64,000 bases of DNA from a virus (IMGVR_UViG_3300012348_000136:1-64000); one strand, 5' to 3'; counted from the stretch's first letter, positions 4,383 through 64,000 are shown. Program-made: numbers and translations. Notes: generated by a model from the letters alone, not told the origin.

Positions 4383-4559
4383 ATGGACCCGAACATTGAA
4401 AAGATCATAGAACTCGAGAAGGAAAAATCTGAGCTTGAGACTGAAGCTATTTACTTATACCAGACGTTGTGTAATATCCTAAGTATTGCTAGCGTTAATG
4501 GGCAGGTGTTTTATGTTGCCAACTCTGCGGTAACTGCATACGAACAACGCCGAAAGTAA
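4383..4559 (+). CDS. small ORF (about 58 aa)
   Basis: Hand-read ORF MDPNIEKIIELEKEKSELE.. in the gap between track ORFs. Confidence 0.3.
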   Translation: MDPNIEKIIELEKEKSELETEAIYLYQTLCNILSIASVNGQVFYVANSAVTAYEQRRK

Positions 4560-4561
4560 AC

Positions 4562-4846
4562 ATGGACATAACGATCAAAGCAAAAAATGGAGACATTCAT
4601 GAATTTGAATTTTTTAAATCGTGGGGTTTAAGAAATCCAAATACATGTGTATTCCAATACTATTGCCGTCGCAGCGATAATATTGAAATGGGAATACAAA
4701 TACTACCTCTTATGTTTTGGAAAGCATTTGGATTTTCGAGAGATTACTTTAATGATTTACGTATGAATGCCAAACATCGCCGTCGCATATTCATCGGCCT
4801 CGGCTTCTTTGAATTATTTTATGACGTATATGACAATGACGCGTGA
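4562..4846 (+). CDS. hypothetical protein (94 aa)
   Basis: Track ORF. Confidence 0.45.
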   Translation: MDITIKAKNGDIHEFEFFKSWGLRNPNTCVFQYYCRRSDNIEMGIQILPLMFWKAFGFSRDYFNDLRMNAKHRRRIFIGLGFFELFYDVYDNDA

Positions 4847-53670: not shown

Positions 53671-54105
53671 ATGAGTCCATGGACATATCAGAACAACGCA
53701 TTTACAAAGGAAGACGCTGAACTAAAAATCGAGGAAGGCTGTATCGGATTCGTCTATGAAATTACAGACGTCTCAAACGGCAAAAAGTACATCGGCAAAA
53801 AGCTGCTAGTCACAAAAAGAAAACGTCCACCGCTTAAAGGTCAAAAGAGAAAGCGCATTGACATTATTCAAAGTGATTGGGAAAAGTATTGTGGCAGCAG
53901 CGAAACAGTTAAGCTATTAGTTAAAGATCGTCCTGATGATTTCCGTCGTGAAATACTTGAGTTCTGTAAAGCAAAAGGCGAACTATCTTACATTGAAGCA
54001 AAGTGGCAATTTGCAAAAGAAGTACTTCTAAAAGAAGAGTACTACAATGAGTTCGTGGGCTGCAGAATACACGCTAAACATGTGAAAAATCTTTGGAAAA
54101 AGTAA
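53671..54105 (+). CDS. hypothetical protein (144 aa)
   Basis: Track ORF. Confidence 0.45.
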   Translation: MSPWTYQNNAFTKEDAELKIEEGCIGFVYEITDVSNGKKYIGKKLLVTKRKRPPLKGQKRKRIDIIQSDWEKYCGSSETVKLLVKDRPDDFRREILEFCKAKGELSYIEAKWQFAKEVLLKEEYYNEFVGCRIHAKHVKNLWKK

Positions 54106-58185: not shown

Positions 58186-58551
58186 ATGCAAACCAATCTT
58201 GACATCACCACGCTCGTTTACCAAGAAGTTCTCAAAGTCAAAAATGACCTCGGCGGTCATGAAACGATTGCTGACCTTCGCCGTCAAGCACGTGCTGAAA
58301 ACAAAAAGCAACGCGCCAAAGCAGTACTTGATTCGTCATACAATCCGGTCTTTGTGCGAGTTGTAACCTTCGGCCGTCTTGGCAAGAACAACCCAAATTC
58401 ATGGATTTACAAGCAACGTAACAGCGGCTTCCGCAACGGATATCAACGCATTGATACCCAACATGCAGCTGAACTTGCTGTTTACATCAACCCTATGAAT
58501 AAGACTAAGTGGGGTTATCATCAAACCTCTAAATTCAATTTCGTCAAATGA
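58186..58551 (+). CDS. hypothetical protein (121 aa)
   Basis: Track ORF. Confidence 0.45.
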   Translation: MQTNLDITTLVYQEVLKVKNDLGGHETIADLRRQARAENKKQRAKAVLDSSYNPVFVRVVTFGRLGKNNPNSWIYKQRNSGFRNGYQRIDTQHAAELAVYINPMNKTKWGYHQTSKFNFVK

Positions 58552-59141
58552 TTCCAGTACCTCCAACACGTAAGACCACGCTGGTTCTTACTGCAGCTTT
58601 TCAGCCGTGTGGATTTTTCTCTGCACGCAGCGCAATCCGAAACCTTATGGTCGGGGGCGTAAAGGCATATGATACACATGGAAATATTCATGATTGGAAA
58701 AGCTGGATTGCGAATGACAACATTCTTGATCCGGATCATCCTTCACTGCGTAGCGTTAGTGCCGATTGGGCAATTCCAACAATTGTTGTGATTCCTGGTT
58801 ACTTCGGTAATCACAAGCGTCGGGGTAAGCGTCGCAATCGTACTGTCAACCTGCGTCAGCTGTATCATGTTTATGATGGTCAATGCCAATACTGCCTGAA
58901 GAAGATTCCGTATACACATGCGACACGGGACCACCTTCTTCCGCGCAGTAAGGGCGGTGGCAATCATGACGACAACATTGTCTTGAGCTGTAAGAAGTGT
59001 AACACCAAGAAGTCTAACCACTTCCCATACTTCAACGTTCATGGCAGCGAAGTCAAGCCAAAGATTCTGTCTGACATTGACTTTACAGCATTGTCCGAAA
59101 AGGTTCAGCGTCGTCCAGAATGGGAAATTTTCCTTGGATAA
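58548..59141 (+). CDS. HNH endonuclease
   Basis: CQYC ... DHLLPRSKGGGNHDDNIVLSCKKCNTKKSN; N-terminus TLVLTAAFQP ... like standalone HNH proteins. Confidence 0.55.
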   Translation: MIPVPPTRKTTLVLTAAFQPCGFFSARSAIRNLMVGGVKAYDTHGNIHDWKSWIANDNILDPDHPSLRSVSADWAIPTIVVIPGYFGNHKRRGKRRNRTVNLRQLYHVYDGQCQYCLKKIPYTHATRDHLLPRSKGGGNHDDNIVLSCKKCNTKKSNHFPYFNVHGSEVKPKILSDIDFTALSEKVQRRPEWEIFLG

Positions 59142-59962: not shown

Positions 59963-60091
59963 ATGGCAAATAACAGTCATACATATAGCAATACATGGAC
60001 ACGACCTCTCAGTGTCGTTGTTTCATTATGCCTATGCATTGCGATGCCTGCGGAATTTAATGGACAAAAAGATCCAAGACTCCAAAGATAA
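59963..60091 (+). CDS. small late ORF (42 aa)
   Basis: Hand-read MANNSHTYSNTWTRPLSVVVSLCLCIAMPAEF..; followed by a terminator. Confidence 0.25.
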   Translation: MANNSHTYSNTWTRPLSVVVSLCLCIAMPAEFNGQKDPRLQR

Positions 60092-60113
60092 GCCAGAAGA
60101 AAATTTCCCCTCC

Positions 60114-60156
60114 GAAAACCTTCGTTCTGGCAACCCCAAACGAAGGTTTTTTATTT
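60114..60156 (+). terminator. rho-independent terminator
   Basis: AAAACCTTCG ... CGAAGGTTTT stem followed by a T-run. Confidence 0.6.
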
Positions 60157-60273
60157 CCAACAAATTGAAAAAAGATATTTACAGAAGCACATTTTTGAGT
60201 TAGAATATATTCACGATCGGCAACGGTAAACAAACCAAAGCCGATCCGATCTCAAAAAGATTGAAAAAAGTTA

Positions 60274-60302
60274 TTTACATTCAGTCCTTTTTAGATTATA
60301 AT
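60274..60302 (+). promoter_or_regulatory. sigma70-like promoter driving the tRNA array
   Basis: TTTACA-N17-TATAAT preceded by GAAAAAAGTTATTTACA, shared with the early cassettes. Confidence 0.55.
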
Positions 60303-60665
60303 AGCTCTACAATCAACGGCAGATAATACAACCTGCCGCTGAACATCGAAAAGCCCGCCAGGTGCAAAAGAAACTTGGTAACGACCGTGGTTGAACGGCT
60401 TGGATCTTGAAGAAGGATGCGATGACAATAAGTTAAGAAGCAGGAGCACTCAGTCCCTGTGTAACAAGATATAGCTGATGAAGAGTTTAGGTTGTAGCGC
60501 CGCACGTTGCGGATCACGCTCCCATACTTTCAAAAGAAAAGCCAAACTATATCAACTGAGAAATTTTCATGCGTCGGTAAAGCAAGCGGCTCTTGCAGCG
60601 AGATTGTAAACCTCGGCCCTTAATTGGGGAGTGGGTCGGCACCACACCGGCGCACCATTCTATAT

Positions 60666-60740
60666 CCTCCAGTAGCTCAGTGGTAGAGCGGGTTCTTTAT
60701 AAGGGCCGGGTCGTTGGATCGTTCCCAACCTGGAGGACCA
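60666..60740 (+). tRNA. tRNA, anticodon UAU (Ile-like), CCA encoded
   Basis: Hand-folded cloverleaf; anticodon stem has two G-U pairs; T-loop ATCGTTC. Confidence 0.5.
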
Positions 60741-60743
60741 TAA

Positions 60744-60818
60744 CCGCCTGTAGCTCAGAGGCAGAGCGCGCGCCCGATAAGTGCGAGGTCGTGATATCGT
60801 AATTCACCAGGCGGACCA
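60744..60818 (+). tRNA. tRNA-Ile (GAU)
   Basis: Hand-folded; anticodon loop CCGATAA; CCA encoded. Confidence 0.6.
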
Positions 60819-60827
60819 TTTCATAAC

Positions 60828-60902
60828 GCGGGATTCGTATATCGGTTAATATGTGAGTTTTCCAAACTTGAGAGAAGGGTTCGATTCCCTTATCCCGTAC
60901 CA
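60828..60902 (+). tRNA. tRNA-Gly (UCC)
   Basis: Hand-folded; loop TTTCCAA; canonical T-arm AAGGGTTCGATTCCCTT; CCA encoded. Confidence 0.55.
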
Positions 60903-60911
60903 CTTTAAATT

Positions 60912-60988
60912 GGGGGCAAAGCATTGCTGATTGATGCACTAGGCTCTTACCCTTGAGAACTCGGTTTGATTCCAGAGTGCCCTAACCA
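60912..60988 (+). tRNA. tRNA-Lys (CUU)-like with a bulged T-stem
   Basis: Anticodon loop CTCTTAC; T-stem CTCGG/CC(A)GAG with one bulge; 1-72 mismatch; CCA encoded. May be a pseudogene. Confidence 0.35.
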
Positions 60989-61000
60989 ATTTCAAAATAA

Positions 61001-61099
61001 CGTCGCGTGTCCGAGTTTGGTTAAAGGAGCTCGCCTTGGAAGCGAGTGCGTGCAGCAAGAGGCTGTGGGCCGTGGGTTCGAATCCCACCGCGGCGACCA
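61001..61099 (+). tRNA. unusual 99-nt tRNA: anticodon UGG (Pro-type loop CTTGGAA) with a 25-nt variable arm
   Basis: C1-G72 and A73; 3-bp D-stem of the long-variable-arm class; variable-arm hairpin GCAGC AAGAG GCTGT; canonical T-arm GTGGGTTCGAATCCCAC; CCA encoded. Confidence 0.45.
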
Positions 61100-61176
61100 A
61101 TTTTAATCGAGTGCTGAAGAATACGGTTACTTCTTCAAGCGAAACAACCACCGTGTTCGTTTGTTGCCTCGAATAT
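61100..61176 (+). ncRNA. conserved structured spacer element, copy 1
   Basis: Paralogous to 61252-61327 and 61924-62017; paired segments ATCGAG/CTCGA and ACGGT/ACCGT. Confidence 0.45.
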
Positions 61177-61251
61177 GGCGTGATGGGGGAATGGCTACTC
61201 GACGGCCTGCAAAGCTGATCCATGTCGGTTCGAGTCCGACTCACGCCTCCA
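61177..61251 (+). tRNA. tRNA-Cys (GCA)
   Basis: Loop CTGCAAA; 27-43 mismatch; T-arm GTCGGTTCGAGTCCGAC; CCA encoded. Confidence 0.5.
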
Positions 61252-61327
61252 ATTTCAAATCGAGTGTTGAATGCAACGGTTACTTCTTTTGGTGAAAACA
61301 CACCGTTGCAGTTTGTTACCTCGACAT
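61252..61327 (+). ncRNA. conserved structured spacer element, copy 2
   Basis: ATCGAG ... CCTCGA outer pairing; inner stem TGCAACGGT/ACCGTTGCA. Confidence 0.45.
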
Positions 61328-61401
61328 ACGGCGTTCGTCTAATGGTAAGACTACTCCCTCCAAAAGAGAAAACGTGGGTTCGATTCCTACACGCCGTGCC
61401 A
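61328..61401 (+). tRNA. tRNA-Trp (CCA)
   Basis: Loop CTCCAAA identical to the E. coli tRNA-Trp loop; weak anticodon stem; CCA encoded. Confidence 0.5.
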
Positions 61402-61415
61402 ATTTCATAAATAAT

Positions 61416-61490
61416 GCGCGTGTAGCTCAGAGGCAGAGCAGCTCCTTTACACGGAGAAGGCCGGGGTTTCGATATCCTCCATGCGTACCA
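61416..61490 (+). tRNA. tRNA-Val (UAC)
   Basis: TAGCTCAGAGGCAGAGC D-arm; loop TTTACAC; CCA encoded. Confidence 0.55.
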
Positions 61491-61499
61491 CTTTCAAAT

Positions 61500-61574
61500 C
61501 GCAGGGAGAGTGTTGGTTCTCCGAGGGTCTCATAAGCCGCTCTGACGTGGGTTCGATTCCCACCCCCGCATCCA
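61500..61574 (+). tRNA. tRNA-like, CAU loop (CTCATAA), initiator-like C1·A72; poor anticodon stem
   Basis: 3' end CCCCGCA-T-CCA resembles the tRNA-fMet acceptor; canonical T-arm GTGGGTTCGATTCCCAC; the body folds poorly. Confidence 0.3.
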
Positions 61575-61583
61575 CTTTTAAAT

Positions 61584-61660
61584 AGAGCCGTAGCTCAGTT
61601 GGTTAGAGCGCTTGCCTGTCAAGCAAGAGGTCGCGGATTCGAGCTCCGTCGGTTCTGCCA
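61584..61660 (+). tRNA. tRNA-Asp (GUC)
   Basis: Clean cloverleaf; loop CTGTCAA; CCA encoded. Confidence 0.65.
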
Positions 61661-61668
61661 AGTTTAAT

Positions 61669-61753
61669 GCCGCAGTGATGAAATGGTAGCACATGCCAGA
61701 CTTAGAATCTGGTGCCTCACGGCGTGTCGGTTCGAGTCCGACCTGCGGTACCA
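61669..61753 (+). tRNA. tRNA-Leu (UAG)
   Basis: Long-variable-arm type; stem CCAGA/TCTGG; loop CTTAGAA; 13-nt variable arm; A73; CCA encoded. Confidence 0.65.
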
Positions 61754-61764
61754 CTTTACATAAT

Positions 61765-61840
61765 AGATAGCAATGCACCGGGCGTGCAGGGACGCTGTTA
61801 ACGTCTGTCGAGCTAGGTTCGAGTCCTAGGCTATCTGCCA
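61765..61840 (+). tRNA. tRNA-Asn (GUU), copy 1
   Basis: Loop CTGTTAA; T-arm CTAGGTTCGAGTCCTAG; G73; CCA encoded. Confidence 0.6.
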
Positions 61841-61848
61841 TTCTTAAC

Positions 61849-61923
61849 CCACCGGTAGCTGAGATGGATTAGCGCTAGCCTGAAGAGCCTGAGAGATTGG
61901 ATCGTTACCAATCCGGTGGACCA
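61849..61923 (+). tRNA. tRNA-Phe (GAA)
   Basis: Loop CTGAAGA (the E. coli tRNA-Phe loop); acceptor CCACCGG/CCGGTGG; weak anticodon stem; CCA encoded. Confidence 0.5.
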
Positions 61924-62017
61924 TTTTATCAAGTGCTGAAGAACAGTGTTACTTCAACGCAAATGAAACAACCCCAAACCAACACTGTTCGCCTATTGCC
62001 TTGATACTTTCTTTAAC
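61924..62017 (+). ncRNA. conserved structured spacer element, copy 3
   Basis: ATCAAG ... CCTTGAT (G to A change compensated by C to T); inner stem ACAGTGTT/AACACTGT. Confidence 0.45.
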
Positions 62018-62094
62018 GGGACATTCGACAAGTGGCCTAAGTCACCGATTTCATAAGTCGGCTATCGTTGGTTCGAATCCAACATGTCCTACCA
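62018..62094 (+). tRNA. tRNA-Met or Ile2 (CAU)
   Basis: Loop TTCATAA; stem CCGAT/GTCGG; T-arm GTTGGTTCGAATCCAAC; CCA encoded. Confidence 0.55.
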
Positions 62095-62102
62095 ATTTCA
62101 AT

Positions 62103-62178
62103 AGATAGCAATGCACCAGGCGTGCAGGGACGCTGTTAACGTCTGTCGAGCTAGGTTCGAGTCCTAGGCTATCTGCCA
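62103..62178 (+). tRNA. tRNA-Asn (GUU), copy 2
   Basis: Near-identical to 61765-61840, with one D-loop difference. Confidence 0.6.
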
Positions 62179-62519
62179 TTTTAGATGACGGCGTGGAAAG
62201 CAGACACGCAGGAATATTCGACTGGACGAAACCCTAGGCGGAGATGCACCGAGATGCGATAGGTTAGTAATCTGGTTGTGACCGTAGAGAAGAGCCGTGC
62301 ATGGCGAGTAAACAGAAAGCAAACCGACTCTGAATCGAGAGGCTTGTCCTGTTGATCGGGTACACCGATTTCAAATCCGAGTAGCGACGGATTCATCTAA
62401 TAACTTTCTCGACAGATTGACTGTGGTTGGTCACTCGAAATAAGATGCGTGTAGATCGTCGATGGATCCCCGACAAAGTAAGCACGCTGGAGCTTCAGCA
62501 GGCTCCGTCTGTTGAAGAT

Positions 62520-62594
62520 TGCTCTGTAGCTCAAAGGAAGAGCGCTTGTATGACATGCAAGAGGTTTGGGTATCGTGATCCCACAGAGCAACCA
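62520..62594 (+). tRNA. tRNA-Val (GAC)
   Basis: TAGCTCAAAGGAAGAGC D-arm; loop ATGACAT; CCA encoded. Confidence 0.5.
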
Positions 62595-62691
62595 ATTTAC
62601 AAACCTAGCGTTAACTTAAAACGATACTGAGGAGGGGCTGAACTCCTGACCTCAGAGAGTGACAGCGAGAGAGAACGCACCAATTTTCAAA

Positions 62692-62774
62692 GGGCATTGC
62701 AGTGTATGTCTTGGATGCATACCGTATCGGAATAAACATACGGAGGTTGGGTTCAAATCCCACTATGTCCACCA
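62692..62774 (+). tRNA. tRNA-like element (canonical T-arm, acceptor and CCA; non-canonical body)
   Basis: TTGGGTTCAAATCCCAC then TATGTCC-A-CCA; upstream hairpin CCGTAT ... ATACGG with a 10-nt loop. Confidence 0.25.
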
Positions 62775-62784
62775 ATTTTTCAAT

Positions 62785-62861
62785 GAATGTGTAGCGCGCA
62801 GTGGTGGGCAGGACCCGCTATGAGGCGACGGAAATGTACGTTCGAATCGTATCCACATTCG
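62785..62861 (+). tRNA. tRNA-like element without encoded CCA, bulged T-stem
   Basis: Perfect acceptor GAATGTG/CACATTC; T-arm GTACGTTCGAATCGTA(T)C; anticodon arm not resolved. Confidence 0.25.
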
Positions 62862-62866
62862 CTAAC

Positions 62867-62941
62867 GCCGCATAAGCATAAAAGGTGATGCGCCGGTTTT
62901 GTACTCCGGATAACTCAGTTCGATTCTGGGATGTGGCTCCA
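62867..62941 (+). tRNA. tRNA-Thr (UGU)
   Basis: Loop TTTGTAC; D-stem GCAT/ATGC; CCA encoded. Confidence 0.55.
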
Positions 62942-62947
62942 CTTTTG

Positions 62948-62955
62948 TATAAATA
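62948..62955 (+). promoter_or_regulatory. T4-type late promoter core
   Basis: TATAAATA 4 nt upstream of the ATG at 62960. Confidence 0.4.
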
Positions 62956-62959
62956 GAGT

Positions 62960-63205
62960 ATGGAAAAAGATACTGAGACTACACTATTGGAAGCGGCTAC
63001 AGCTGCACTAACCGAAGCTCAAATTGAACCATCCGCTAAGACATTGTATGCAATGAAAGATGGTGCAATCATATTCGTCGATCGCGTTAAGGGCGACGAA
63101 GTAATGATTTTTAAAGCTTCTAATTGGAATAGTGGTGCAATCACGCTTGATATGTTTAAGTCTAAAGTTTCTGGTAAAATCGGAGAAGCCGATTTACGTA
63201 AGTAA
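62960..63205 (+). CDS. hypothetical protein (81 aa) embedded in the tRNA array
   Basis: Track ORF with a late-promoter motif upstream. Confidence 0.45.
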   Translation: MEKDTETTLLEAATAALTEAQIEPSAKTLYAMKDGAIIFVDRVKGDEVMIFKASNWNSGAITLDMFKSKVSGKIGEADLRK

Positions 63206-63212
63206 TTACATT

Positions 63213-63287
63213 GCTCCTTAAGCATAGATGGCGATGCGCTGATTTCGTACATCAGAAAGGACGGCTCAAGTCCGTCAAGGAGCTCCA
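63213..63287 (+). tRNA. tRNA-Thr (CGU)
   Basis: Clean fold; loop TTCGTAC; T-loop CTCAAGT; CCA encoded. Confidence 0.55.
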
Positions 63288-63294
63288 CTTTTAT

Positions 63295-63384
63295 GGAGCG
63301 GGCCCAGGCTGGCCGATGGAACATACCTGGAAAGTATGTGGACCCTACAAGGTCTCAGGAGTTCGAATCTCCTCTGCTCCGCCA
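63295..63384 (+). tRNA. tRNA-Ser (GGA)
   Basis: Long-variable-arm type, 90 nt; stem CATAC/GTATG; loop CTGGAAA; T-arm AGGAGTTCGAATCTCCT; G73; CCA encoded. Confidence 0.65.
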
Positions 63385-63392
63385 TTTTTAAT

Positions 63393-63466
63393 TGTTCCGT
63401 AGCGTAATGGTAGCGCAACTGACTTTGACTCAGTGTGTATGGGTTCGACTCCCGTCGGAACTACCA
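63393..63466 (+). tRNA. tRNA-Gln (UUG)
   Basis: Loop CTTTGAC; stem ACTGA/TCAGT; weak 1-72 pair as in E. coli tRNA-Gln; CCA encoded. Confidence 0.55.
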
Positions 63467-63472
63467 ATCTTG

Positions 63473-63480
63473 TATAAATA
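63473..63480 (+). promoter_or_regulatory. T4-type late promoter core
   Basis: TATAAATA 5 nt upstream of the ATG at 63486. Confidence 0.4.
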
Positions 63481-63485
63481 ATCAC

Positions 63486-63914
63486 ATGAATAATCCATTT
63501 TTAGATACAAATAGTGATCCGCTTGTTGAAGCAGCTAAGACAATCCTTGAAAAGGTTTCTATCGCTGCGGTCACTGGATATGGTAAGTCCGTTCCAAGCG
63601 AGATACAAGAGCATCTGCAGACAATTTTGAATTCAGCTGATAGTCCTAAAGGTTCCATAACACGTGCTAAGTTTTTTGATTCTGGTTACTATGGAGTTTC
63701 CTTTATGATTGGCGGACGTGAATATAACATCACCATGAACATGGGAAAACTTGGATCTGATGATTATGTTCGAGGTAATATGACTCTTACCAAAACCGGA
63801 GATTCTAAACCAATCCTTGTAATTAAAGGGGATGACAAGTTGAATAGCGGTTTTCCAACAATGAGCGATCTCGGCAAGATGACGCGAGCTGTTTCTGATT
63901 TGATCAGACGTTAA
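63486..63914 (+). CDS. hypothetical protein (142 aa)
   Basis: Track ORF 63435..63914 trimmed so it no longer overlaps tRNA-Gln. Confidence 0.45.
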   Translation: MNNPFLDTNSDPLVEAAKTILEKVSIAAVTGYGKSVPSEIQEHLQTILNSADSPKGSITRAKFFDSGYYGVSFMIGGREYNITMNMGKLGSDDYVRGNMTLTKTGDSKPILVIKGDDKLNSGFPTMSDLGKMTRAVSDLIRR

Positions 63915-64000
63915 TTCTTTGGGTATGATGTAGTGATAGCATGACACCTTCCAGGTTGAGAAGCATTTGCTTCTCTGTATGATAAAGTCAGCGTACGTTT

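What the first reader, a model, noticed from the sequence alone, without database searches (positions are those of the whole stretch)
61100..62017. Three paralogous structured RNA elements with compensatory base changes, interspersed in the tRNA array
Elements at 61100-61176, 61252-61327 and 61924-62017 each end exactly at the 5' end of a tRNA, sharing ATC(G/A)AGTG(C/T)TGAA ... GTTACTTC ... GTTTGTT(G/A)CCT(C/T)GA. The outer pairing switches from TCGAG/CTCGA to TCAAG/CTTGA in copy 3, with G to A matched by C to T. The inner stem is ACGGT/ACCGT, then CAACGGT/ACCGTTG, then ACAGTGTT/AACACTGT. Covariation of this kind argues for a conserved RNA secondary structure rather than drift. Possible roles are processing-guide hairpins for RNase P or RNase E, small stable RNAs like T4 species 1 and 2, or mobile tRNA-associated elements.
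Basis: seen in the sequence. Interest (0 to 1): 0.6.

Follow-up and report, generated by a model that had tools for sequence, protein, structure and literature searches.

The report
Short phage Y RNAs among tRNAs
The three repeated hairpins between tRNA genes are real, structure-conserved RNAs, and they are short relatives of Y RNAs (the small RNAs that bind the Ro60/Rsr RNA-surveillance protein), a known RNA class found here in an unusual place, inside a phage tRNA array and far from the Ro60 gene.

Summary
Three paralogous ~68-78 nt elements (61106-61173, 61259-61325, 61928-62005, + strand) sit between tRNAs and share two helices with compensatory changes. No Rfam family matches them.

A covariance model built only from these elements and their orthologues in sister phages found distant relatives, and those lie next to genes for the TROVE-domain protein Ro60/Rsr. 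It gave 147 hits in 74 of 80 viral Rsr loci, all on the rsr strand, 131 of them within 1 kb upstream. A second model built only from those Rsr-adjacent RNAs scores the window copies at 60-69 bits.

The conserved core (bulged U, GCUGAAG, UUACUUC) matches the published bacterial Y RNA signature (GNCGAAN0-1G, YUAY). Longer relatives carry the tRNA-like domain of YrlA.

So the elements are short Y RNA-like, probably Rsr-binding RNAs without the tRNA-like module. They are most likely co-transcribed with the tRNAs and released by tRNA-processing enzymes.

No rsr gene lies in the window. Two sister phages carry rsr 14-17 kb downstream on the same strand.

Its functional guesses were only loosely right. 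This is a new variant of a known kind, of moderate interest.

The parts
61106..61173 (+). Y RNA-like element, copy A. It lies 4 nt upstream of tRNA-Cys. P1 is 61107-61111 plus 61113-61114, pairing with 61166-61172, with a bulged U at 61112. The GCUGAAG motif is at 61113-61119. P2 is 61119-61127 pairing with 61150-61158. UUACUUC is at 61127-61133. The J2/1 strand GUUUGUU is at 61159-61165.
   Evidence: Sequence; fold; R1 89.1 bits; R2, built from Rsr-adjacent RNAs only, 69.4 bits, E 6e-16.
61259..61325 (+). Y RNA-like element, copy B. It lies 3 nt upstream of tRNA-Trp. The motif is GUUGAAUG, the one-spacer form of GNCGAAN0-1G. Its top P1 pair is U-A where copies A and C have C-G.
   Evidence: R1 83 bits; R2 68.7 bits.
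61928..62005 (+). Y RNA-like element, copy C. It lies 12-13 nt upstream of tRNA-Met(CAU). P1 is UCAAG/CUUGA, and the terminal loop is longer and A/C-rich. It has the same P1 and the same position as a 141-nt relative in L151 that carries a tRNA-like domain.
   Evidence: R1 76.3 bits; R2 60.6 bits; L151 4723-4863.
61177..61251 (+). tRNA-Cys(GCA). RNase P cleavage at its 5' end would define the 3' end of copy A (inferred).
   Evidence: ARAGORN; Rfam tRNA 45.7 bits.
61328..61401 (+). tRNA-Trp(CCA), directly downstream of copy B.
62018..62094 (+). tRNA-Met(CAU), directly downstream of copy C.
61001..61099 (+). Upstream neighbour of copy A: a 99-nt tRNA with a UGG anticodon and a long variable arm, ending in CCA and followed by the AUUUUA spacer.
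   Evidence: The same 98-99 nt gene is present in sister phages.
61849..61920 (+). Upstream neighbour of copy C: a tRNA found by Rfam but not by ARAGORN.
   Evidence: Rfam tRNA 39.6 bits.
60178..60302 (+). Two sigma-70-like promoters (TTTACA-17-TAGAAT at 60178-60206 and TTTACA-17-TATAAT at 60274-60302) at the head of the tRNA array. They are the likely start of the transcript that contains the elements.
   Evidence: Consensus scan, 10/12 and 11/12 matches. Their function is inferred.

Best explanation
The three elements are short Y RNA-like non-coding RNAs, the RNA partners of the ring-shaped Ro60/Rsr protein.

Each consists of the Rsr-binding module only:
- a stem formed by the 5' and 3' ends (P1) with a single bulged U;
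- the conserved 5'-strand motif G-C/U-U-G-A-A-(N)-G;
- an asymmetric internal loop (UGAA opposite NNNURUU);
- an upper stem (P2);
- a 22-31 nt loop that opens with UUACUUC.

They lack the tRNA-like effector domain of YrlA-type Y RNAs.

Proposed mechanism (all four steps are inferred):
1. The elements are transcribed as part of the polycistronic tRNA precursor, from the promoters at about 60.2-60.3 kb.
2. RNase P cleavage of the downstream tRNA, together with cleavage and trimming after the upstream tRNA's CCA in the A/U-rich spacer, releases them as ~70-80 nt RNAs.
3. They bind Rsr. The phage probably encodes its own Rsr beyond the window, because sister phages carry rsr 14-17 kb downstream on the same strand.
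4. The RNP gates Rsr or tethers it to a 3'-5' exoribonuclease such as host PNPase, as shown experimentally for Deinococcus and Salmonella Y RNAs and for Thermus phage phiLo.

What is shown here: homology to Rsr-linked RNAs, the structure, the motif, and the genomic association. What is not shown: Rsr binding, processing, and the downstream function.
For: 1. A covariance model (R1) built only from the window copies and their orthologues recovers distant relatives in IMG/VR. In 6 loci outside the window's clade that hold R1-confirmed relatives (L150, L172, L174, L144, L145, L169), a TROVE/Ro60 gene lies immediately next to them (Pfam PF05731 E 5e-16; tblastn). Two further such loci (L148, L153) show no rsr in the short stretch held (L153 was not among the sequences searched).
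2. In 80 viral Rsr loci fetched through the protein alone, R1 gives 147 hits in 74 loci. All are on the rsr strand, 131 lie within 1 kb upstream and 9 within 1 kb downstream.
3. The reciprocal test holds. R2, built only from those Rsr-adjacent RNAs, scores the window copies at 69.4, 68.7 and 60.6 bits, E 1e-13 to 1e-16.
4. The family consensus is bulged U (99%), GG, Y, G, A/U, A, G, then UACUUC (91-100% per position). [quoted passage not shown] 2014 (PMC4201824) define for bacterial Y RNAs and relate to the vertebrate Ro60 contact GGUCCGA.
5. Longer relatives carry a T-arm, a capped acceptor-like stem and a D-arm in the P2 loop. Two of them match Rfam YrlA over its full length (31.7 and 30.6 bits, E 1.5e-4 and 3.2e-4, below the gathering score).
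6. Both models hit the unannotated gaps next to rsr in cultured phages. One of these is CcrColossus, which PMC12135203, citing Chen 2014, lists among phages with Y RNA-like RNAs.
7. Sister phages carry rsr on the same contig and strand, 16-17 kb (L027/L181) and 14-15 kb (L124/L265) downstream of the elements.
8. Compensatory changes between orthologues within the clade indicate continuing selection on the fold.
9. A phage Ro60 binds phage Y-like RNAs and host PNPase in vitro (PMC12135203).
Against: - No TROVE/Rsr ORF exists in the 64-kb window (profile search of all ORFs, best E 2.7). I could not retrieve the rest of the contig. This breaks the usual criterion that bacterial Y RNAs lie within about 4 kb of rsr.
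- Rfam YrlA and Y_RNA do not match the window copies, even at E <= 10.
- The third motif position is U here, not the C of GNCGAA. However, 59% of the Rsr-linked relatives also have U there.
- At 68-78 nt the elements are shorter than the 80-130 nt given for characterised Y RNAs.
- Individual copies look dispensable. In L027 the copy-B site keeps only its first ~19 nt, followed by what looks (read by eye, not tested) like a homing-endonuclease remnant. In L124 copy A has lost 2 bp of P1.
- Expression, processing and Rsr binding are all untested.
Confidence: 0.85

Rival explanations
1. The elements are decaying or repurposed relics of Y RNAs. They derive from YrlA-type RNAs that lost the tRNA-like domain. 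They now act at most as Rsr decoys or sponges, or as inert structured spacers, rather than as working Y RNAs.
For: - They lack the effector (tRNA-like) domain, whereas the positional counterpart of copy C in L151 keeps it.
- They are unlinked from rsr.
- Copy B is destroyed in L027, and P1 of copy A is truncated in L124.
Against: - Orthologues in four to five sister phages keep both helices through compensatory changes, and the unpaired motifs are invariant. Neutral relics would not show this.
- Short Y RNAs without a tRNA-like domain (YrlB, Yrn2) are bound by Rsr in all three bacteria studied (PMC4201824).
Confidence: 0.08
2. The elements are tRNA-processing signals: structured leaders that guide or modulate RNase P, RNase E or RNase III cleavage of the Cys, Trp and Met tRNA precursors.
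For: - Each lies 3-13 nt upstream of a tRNA.
- The two coaxial helices with an internal loop resemble RNase III substrates (my own knowledge; not tested).
Against: - Only 3 tRNA junctions in the window have them.
- The same motif occurs in 74 of 80 Rsr loci, usually with no tRNA immediately downstream, and in tandem arrays upstream of rsr.
- The invariant unpaired bases coincide with the published Ro60-binding signature.
Confidence: 0.04
3. The elements are small self-cleaving ribozymes that release the neighbouring tRNAs.
For: There are superficial resemblances: CUGAAGA...GAAAC recalls the hammerhead core, and UGAA, GAAACA and UUAC recall hairpin-ribozyme loops. I noticed these by eye.
Against: - No ribozyme family in Rfam matches, even at E <= 10.
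- The covariation-supported topology is two nested coaxial helices, not a three-way junction or a double pseudoknot.
- GAAAC is not conserved: L128 reads GGAAC and L027 GAAAAAC.
- Rsr linkage explains the conserved bases.
Confidence: 0.02

Closest known systems
Bacterial/phage Y RNAs of the YrlA type (Rfam RF02553; Chen et al. 2014, PMC4201824)
   Same: - A stem formed by the 5' and 3' ends.
- The GNCGAAN0-1G-type motif on the 5' strand, followed by a helix and then YUAY.
- Relatives found by the same covariance model lie on the rsr strand directly beside rsr. Some of them carry the T-arm, capped acceptor-like stem and D-arm that define YrlA.
   Different: - The window copies have no tRNA-like domain.
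- They are 68-78 nt long.
- They do not reach any score against RF02553.
- They are not beside rsr.
- They are embedded between tRNA genes.
Short Y RNAs without a full tRNA-like domain (S. Typhimurium YrlB, M. smegmatis YrlB, D. radiodurans Yrn2)
   Same: [quoted passage not shown] Sister phages of the window likewise have longer Y RNAs elsewhere: L027 12067-12232, L181 3363-3478, L265 7020-7134.
   Different: - Those RNAs lie within 2 kb of rsr and are processed from the rsr transcript. The window elements are in a tRNA array, 14-17 kb from rsr in the sister phages.
- I could not test sequence homology to YrlB or Yrn2, because their sequences are not in the tools.
Thermus phage phiLo Yrl1/Yrl2 with phage Ro60 (PMC12135203)
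   Same: These are phage-encoded Y-like RNAs with a 5'-3' stem and a CGAA-type motif. Experiments show they bind the phage Ro60 and assemble with host PNPase. This is the best experimental model for how the window elements may work.
   Different: - phiLo Ro60 is only ~27% identical to the Rsr of this clade.
- Its Yrls sit directly upstream of the Ro60 gene.
- I made no sequence comparison.
Phage T4 stable RNAs species 1 and 2 (rnaC, rnaD)
   Same: They are small stable RNAs encoded inside a T4-type tRNA cluster and co-transcribed with the tRNAs. The window phage is T4-like in its replication genes.
   Different: There is no similarity: R2 scores at most 8 bits anywhere in the T4 tRNA region and gives no match on the strand of rnaC/rnaD at their position. 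I know of no Ro60 gene in T4.

Membership tests
Y RNA (Ro60/Rsr-binding ncRNA, bacterial/phage type) | A long stem formed by pairing of the 5' and 3' ends | tested here: met
   P1 (7 bp plus a bulged U) closes each element. It is 97-98% paired, with compensatory changes.
Y RNA (Ro60/Rsr-binding ncRNA, bacterial/phage type) | The conserved Ro60/Rsr-binding motif on the 5' strand (GNCGAAN0-1G; vertebrate GGUCCGA in a bulged helix) | tested here: met
   Copies A and C read GCUGAAG; copy B reads GUUGAAUG. Both follow a bulged U. The third position is U rather than C, as in 59% of the 127 Rsr-linked relatives. The motif definition comes from PMC4201824.
Y RNA (Ro60/Rsr-binding ncRNA, bacterial/phage type) | Encoded near rsr on the same strand (within about 4 kb in Chen et al. 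2014) | tested here: not met
   There is no TROVE ORF in the 64-kb window. In two sister phages rsr is 14-17 kb downstream on the same strand. Homologues found by the model do meet this criterion in 74 of 80 viral Rsr loci.
Y RNA (Ro60/Rsr-binding ncRNA, bacterial/phage type) | Physically bound by Ro60/Rsr | not testable with these tools
   This needs EMSA or RIP with the phage or host Rsr.
Y RNA (Ro60/Rsr-binding ncRNA, bacterial/phage type) | Size 80-130 nt with a large internal loop or effector module | tested here: inconclusive
   The elements are 68-78 nt with a 22-31 nt terminal loop. Among the Rsr-adjacent hits, 105 of 147 are also 85 nt or shorter.
YrlA (Rfam RF02553) | A tRNA-like domain (T-arm, D-arm, acceptor-like stem) and a score above the family's gathering threshold | tested here: not met
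   The window copies give no hit at E <= 10 and contain no T-loop or D-arm. Long relatives in L172 reach 31 bits against a gathering score of 69.
Known small self-cleaving ribozymes (hammerhead, hairpin, HDV-like, twister, pistol, hatchet) | A match to the family covariance model and its topology | tested here: not met
   No Rfam match at E <= 10. The supported structure is two nested helices.
T4 rnaC/rnaD stable RNAs | Sequence or structure similarity to T4 species 1 or 2 | tested here: not met
   R2 with filters off on the T4 tRNA region scores at most 8 bits and gives no match on the strand of rnaC/rnaD at their position.

The most novel reading that the evidence does not exclude
In this clade of T4-like environmental phages, minimal Y RNAs have been moved out of the rsr locus into the tRNA array. 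Their ends would then be made by the tRNA-processing machinery (RNase P at the downstream tRNA), and their amount would be coupled to tRNA output. This would point to a phage Ro60-Y RNA particle dedicated to quality control or turnover of the phage's ~40 tRNA transcripts, or to hijacking host PNPase. It would also define a tRNA-punctuated route of Y RNA biogenesis that rsr-proximity searches and the Rfam YrlA model both miss.
Probability: 0.3. Interest if true: 0.6.

Novelty: new variant of a known kind. Interest (0 to 1): 0.45.

Why it matters
Ro60 and Y RNAs are conserved from bacteria to humans, where Ro60 is a lupus and Sjogren autoantigen. Their function in bacteria and phages is still poorly defined.

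This finding contributes three things:
1. A compact consensus for the Rsr-binding module, supported by covariation. It detects Y-like RNAs beside 74 of 80 viral Ro60 genes, including cultured phages (Xanthomonas MET23-P3, Caulobacter CcrColossus, crAss001) whose records carry no Y RNA annotation at those places.
2. Evidence that Y RNAs can lie far from rsr, inside tRNA arrays. Proximity-based surveys therefore undercount them.
3. A natural set of three minimal Y RNAs, useful for defining what is sufficient for Rsr binding.

The finding does not reveal a new kind of RNA.

Tried and rejected
- **Rfam:** a scan of 60000-64000 at E <= 10 found only tRNAs and noise.
- **blastn against 50,697 phage records:** only tRNA matches, so no close cultured relative exists.
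Fixing the spacer at 7 nt solved this.
- **Ribozyme readings** (hammerhead CUGAAGA...GAAAC; hairpin-ribozyme loops; HDV-like double pseudoknot): rejected on topology, on lack of conservation of GAAAC, and on the absence of Rfam hits.
- **GAA/UUC pseudoknot** between J1/2 and the loop: all bases are invariant, so there is no covariation, and the geometry is implausible.
- **T-box-like 'specifier' idea:** UGG appears in the copies before tRNA-Trp and AUG in those before tRNA-Met, but it fails for the Cys copies.
- **Other readings considered by eye and dropped:** a T4 MotA-box promoter (spacing wrong), integron attC-like ssDNA sites, and k-turn motifs.
- **Trans-target idea:** the complement GAAGTAAC is not enriched on the mRNA strand (2 sites).
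- **Permuted-tRNA reading of the long relatives:** rejected because the acceptor-like stem is capped by GAAA and has no CCA. This is the YrlA architecture.
- **Attempts to read the window's own contig beyond 64 kb:** they returned only short Logan contigs.
- **Search for an Rsr on a 95.7-kb contig:** none was listed.
- **Conserved 340-nt block at 62179-62519:** its fold is unremarkable (z -0.9).

Full report
**Observation**

The window's last 3.5 kb is a dense + strand tRNA array. ARAGORN finds 16 tRNAs, and Rfam adds two above its threshold plus one weak candidate. The array lies downstream of two sigma-70-like promoters at 60178-60302.

Their structured parts are 61106-61173, 61259-61325 and 61928-62005. 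Each starts after the CCA and an A/U-rich spacer of an upstream tRNA, and each ends 3-13 nt before tRNA-Cys, tRNA-Trp or tRNA-Met. The 13-nt 5' motif occurs without mismatch only at these three sites in 64 kb.

The copies share one fold:
- P1 is UCGAG, a bulged U, then GC, pairing with GC-CUCGA.
- J1/2 is UGAA.
- P2 is a 9-10 bp helix of variable sequence.
- The terminal loop opens with UUACUUC.
- J2/1 is 7 nt and ends in URUU.

**Relatives within the clade**

Rfam gave nothing for the elements at E <= 10. No cultured phage has similar DNA beyond the tRNAs. By its replication genes the phage is a T4-like myovirus: RNase H is 42% identical to those of cyanophages and Methylophilales phage Melnitz.

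A pattern scan of IMG/VR and look-ups around the nearby ClpP-like protease gene brought in sister phages: L027/L115/L121, L124/L125, L128 and later L151. The same three element types sit at the same places in these phages, before the Cys, Trp and Met tRNAs, with further compensatory changes.

On 10 distinct copies, 98% of cells pair and 9 of 16 pairs change on both sides. No shuffle reaches the observed score, and slid controls pair at only 32-44%.

Individual copies can be lost:
- In L027 the copy-B site keeps only its first ~19 nt. What follows looks, by eye, like a homing-endonuclease (NUMOD3) remnant, and then a different tRNA-Trp.
- In L124 copy A has lost two P1 pairs.

**The turn**

I built a covariance model (R1) from those 10 copies. 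A stricter pattern scan with a fixed 7-nt spacer, searched with R1, then recovered distant relatives in unrelated viral contigs.

Some relatives carry a 60-70 nt insert in the P2 loop: a T-arm (GGUUCGAAUCC), an acceptor-like stem capped by GAAA, and a D-arm. Two of the three tandem copies in L172 match Rfam's Y RNA-like family YrlA over its full length (31.7 and 30.6 bits, below the gathering score of 69). The ORF that follows them is a TROVE/Ro60 protein (PF05731, E 5e-16).

Rsr genes lie directly beside the R1 hits in L150, L172, L174, L144, L145 and L169.

**Test of the association**

I fetched 80 viral Rsr loci through the protein alone and searched them with R1:
- 147 hits fell in 74 of the 80 loci.
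- All 147 are on the rsr strand.
- 131 lie within 1 kb upstream and 9 within 1 kb downstream.
- Most loci hold 1-4 copies.

Of the six loci without a hit, two have no upstream sequence and two are the window's own sister phages.

On the 127 distinct sequences, 93.8% of cells pair and all 16 pairs show compensatory changes (covariation score 0.84, against 0.22 for shuffles and at most 0.12 for slid controls).

A second model (R2), built only from these Rsr-adjacent RNAs, scores the window copies at 69.4, 68.7 and 60.6 bits. This test is not fully independent, because R1 chose the sequences R2 was built from. The genomic linkage to rsr, however, does not depend on either model.

**Comparison with the literature**

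Chen et al. 2014 (PMC4201824) define bacterial and phage Y RNAs by:
- a stem formed by the two ends;
- a 5' motif, GNCGAAN0-1G, related to the vertebrate Ro60 contact GGUCCGA in a bulged helix;
- a conserved YUAY;
- in YrlA, a tRNA-like domain.

They also note that each species studied has a second, shorter hairpin-like Y RNA (YrlB, Yrn2).

The family consensus here is a bulged U (99%), GG, Y (U 59%, C 41%), G, A/U, A, G ... UACUUC. This contains both signatures. The window copies read GCUGAAG or GUUGAAUG, and UUAC.

A 2025 study shows that a Thermus phage Ro60 binds two phage Y-like RNAs and assembles with host PNPase (PMC12135203). The same paper, citing Chen 2014, names CcrColossus among phages with Y RNA-like RNAs. 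R2 finds nine tandem copies upstream of the CcrColossus rsr. It also finds copies beside rsr in Xanthomonas phage MET23-P3, crAss001 and Rhizobium phage RHph_TM30, all in unannotated gaps.

**Where is rsr for this phage?**

No TROVE ORF exists in the window or in the array loci of the sister phages. Two sister phages do carry rsr on the same contig and strand as the elements:
- The L027 contig has rsr 16-17 kb downstream of the elements (L181; TROVE plus Ro60 vWA domains).
- The L124 contig (88% identical ClpP-like protease) has rsr 14-15 kb downstream (L265).

In both, rsr follows an adenylosuccinate-synthetase-like gene, and a further, longer Y RNA lies 2.5-2.9 kb upstream of rsr; in L181 that RNA follows a sigma-70-like sequence that I read by eye.

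I could not read the window's own contig past 64 kb. Presence of rsr in this phage is therefore likely but not shown.

In slightly more distant relatives (L150/L179, L180), the Y RNAs and rsr sit together in the middle of the tRNA array. This suggests that the separation seen here is derived. Rearrangement by homing endonucleases, which litter these arrays, is a possible cause (inference).

**Mechanism (inferred)**

1. The elements are co-transcribed with the tRNAs.
2. RNase P cleavage of the downstream tRNA, together with cleavage and trimming in the A/U-rich spacer after the upstream CCA, releases them.
3. Rsr binds through the bulged-helix and GCUGAAG module.
4. The RNP gates Rsr or tethers it to an exoribonuclease.

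The elements lack the tRNA-like effector module. They may therefore act as gates or reservoirs rather than tethers, as proposed for YrlB-type RNAs.

Copy C has the same P1 (UCAAG/CUUGA) and the same position before tRNA-Met as a 141-nt relative in L151 that carries the tRNA-like domain. This suggests that copy C lost the domain.

**Rejected alternatives**

- **tRNA-processing guides:** the motif is mostly found away from tRNAs, beside rsr.
- **Ribozymes:** there are no Rfam hits, the topology is wrong, and GAAAC is not conserved.
- **T4 rnaC/rnaD relatives:** R2 scores at most 8 bits in the T4 tRNA region.
- **Mobile elements:** the positions are orthologous across sister phages.

**Verdict**

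The feature is real and under selection for structure, and it is identified with good confidence as a short Y RNA-like, Rsr-binding RNA. It is a new variant of a known kind: minimal in size, embedded between tRNAs, far from rsr, and invisible to the current Rfam model. Interest is moderate.

Noticed in passing
window 62179-62519 (L027 5262-5470 matches its first ~210 nt): A ~340-nt stretch inside the tRNA array with no tRNA or Rfam match; ORFs of only 52-71 aa overlap it. Its first ~210 nt are conserved in a sister phage, where a GIY-YIG-like homing endonuclease ORF (identified by eye) sits immediately upstream. There is no Rfam hit at E <= 10, and the predicted fold is not better than shuffles (z -0.9). 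Its nature is unknown.
   Followed up: partly
window 60541-60660; L027 2390-2575 (two copies): A ~110-nt tRNA-like sequence at the head of the array. It has a 7-bp acceptor-type stem (GCGUCGG/CCGGCGC) and ends in ACCA. Neither ARAGORN nor Rfam calls it, and it is duplicated in the sister phage.
   Followed up: no
window 61001-61099: A 99-nt tRNA with a Pro anticodon (UGG) but a long variable arm, which is normally a feature of Ser, Leu and Tyr tRNAs. It is conserved at 97-99 nt in the sister phages and in L150.
   Followed up: no
window 61765-61840 and 62103-62178: Two near-identical tRNA-Asn(GUU) genes, with their leaders, bracket the segment that holds tRNA(61849-61920), Y RNA copy C and tRNA-Met. 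This looks like a duplication or a cassette insertion.
   Followed up: no
window 60912-60984, 61499-61575, 62600-62860, 63213-63284: Further tRNA-sized slots, read by eye as ending in CCA plus the usual spacer, that ARAGORN misses. Rfam calls one of them firmly and two weakly or not at all. They are probably divergent tRNAs.
   Followed up: no
L027 3345-3475 and 4580-5260; window 53671-54105 and 58548-59141: Homing endonucleases and their apparent remnants pepper the array and its surroundings: in L027 a NUMOD3-like remnant and a GIY-YIG-like ORF (both read by eye), and near the window array a SegE-like GIY-YIG gene and an HNH gene. In L027 the remnant replaces Y RNA copy B and comes with a different tRNA-Trp. 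This is reminiscent of segB in the T4 tRNA cluster.
   Followed up: partly
L260 (Caulobacter phage CcrColossus NC_019406) 1744-2940: Nine tandem Y RNA-like hits lie upstream of rsr. The annotated 'tRNA-Gln' (locus 2155-2222) lies inside one of them (2151-2318), so it is probably the tRNA-like domain of a Y RNA rather than a tRNA.
   Followed up: partly
L150 5489-5882 (-) = L179 4699-5092: A related T4-like phage contig encodes a tmRNA directly upstream of its Y RNAs and rsr, all within a tRNA array.
   Followed up: no
L263 (Bacteroides phage crAss001 MH675552) 4448-4620: Two Y RNA-like hits (25 and 22 bits with R1; 34.6 bits with R2) lie in the unannotated 900-nt gap just downstream of the crAss001 TROVE gene gp96.
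   Followed up: partly
L128 3239-6206: In one sister phage the ribonucleotide reductase large-subunit gene is split by an intein-like insertion (precomputed Pfam Intein_splicing hits, weak and faint).
   Followed up: no
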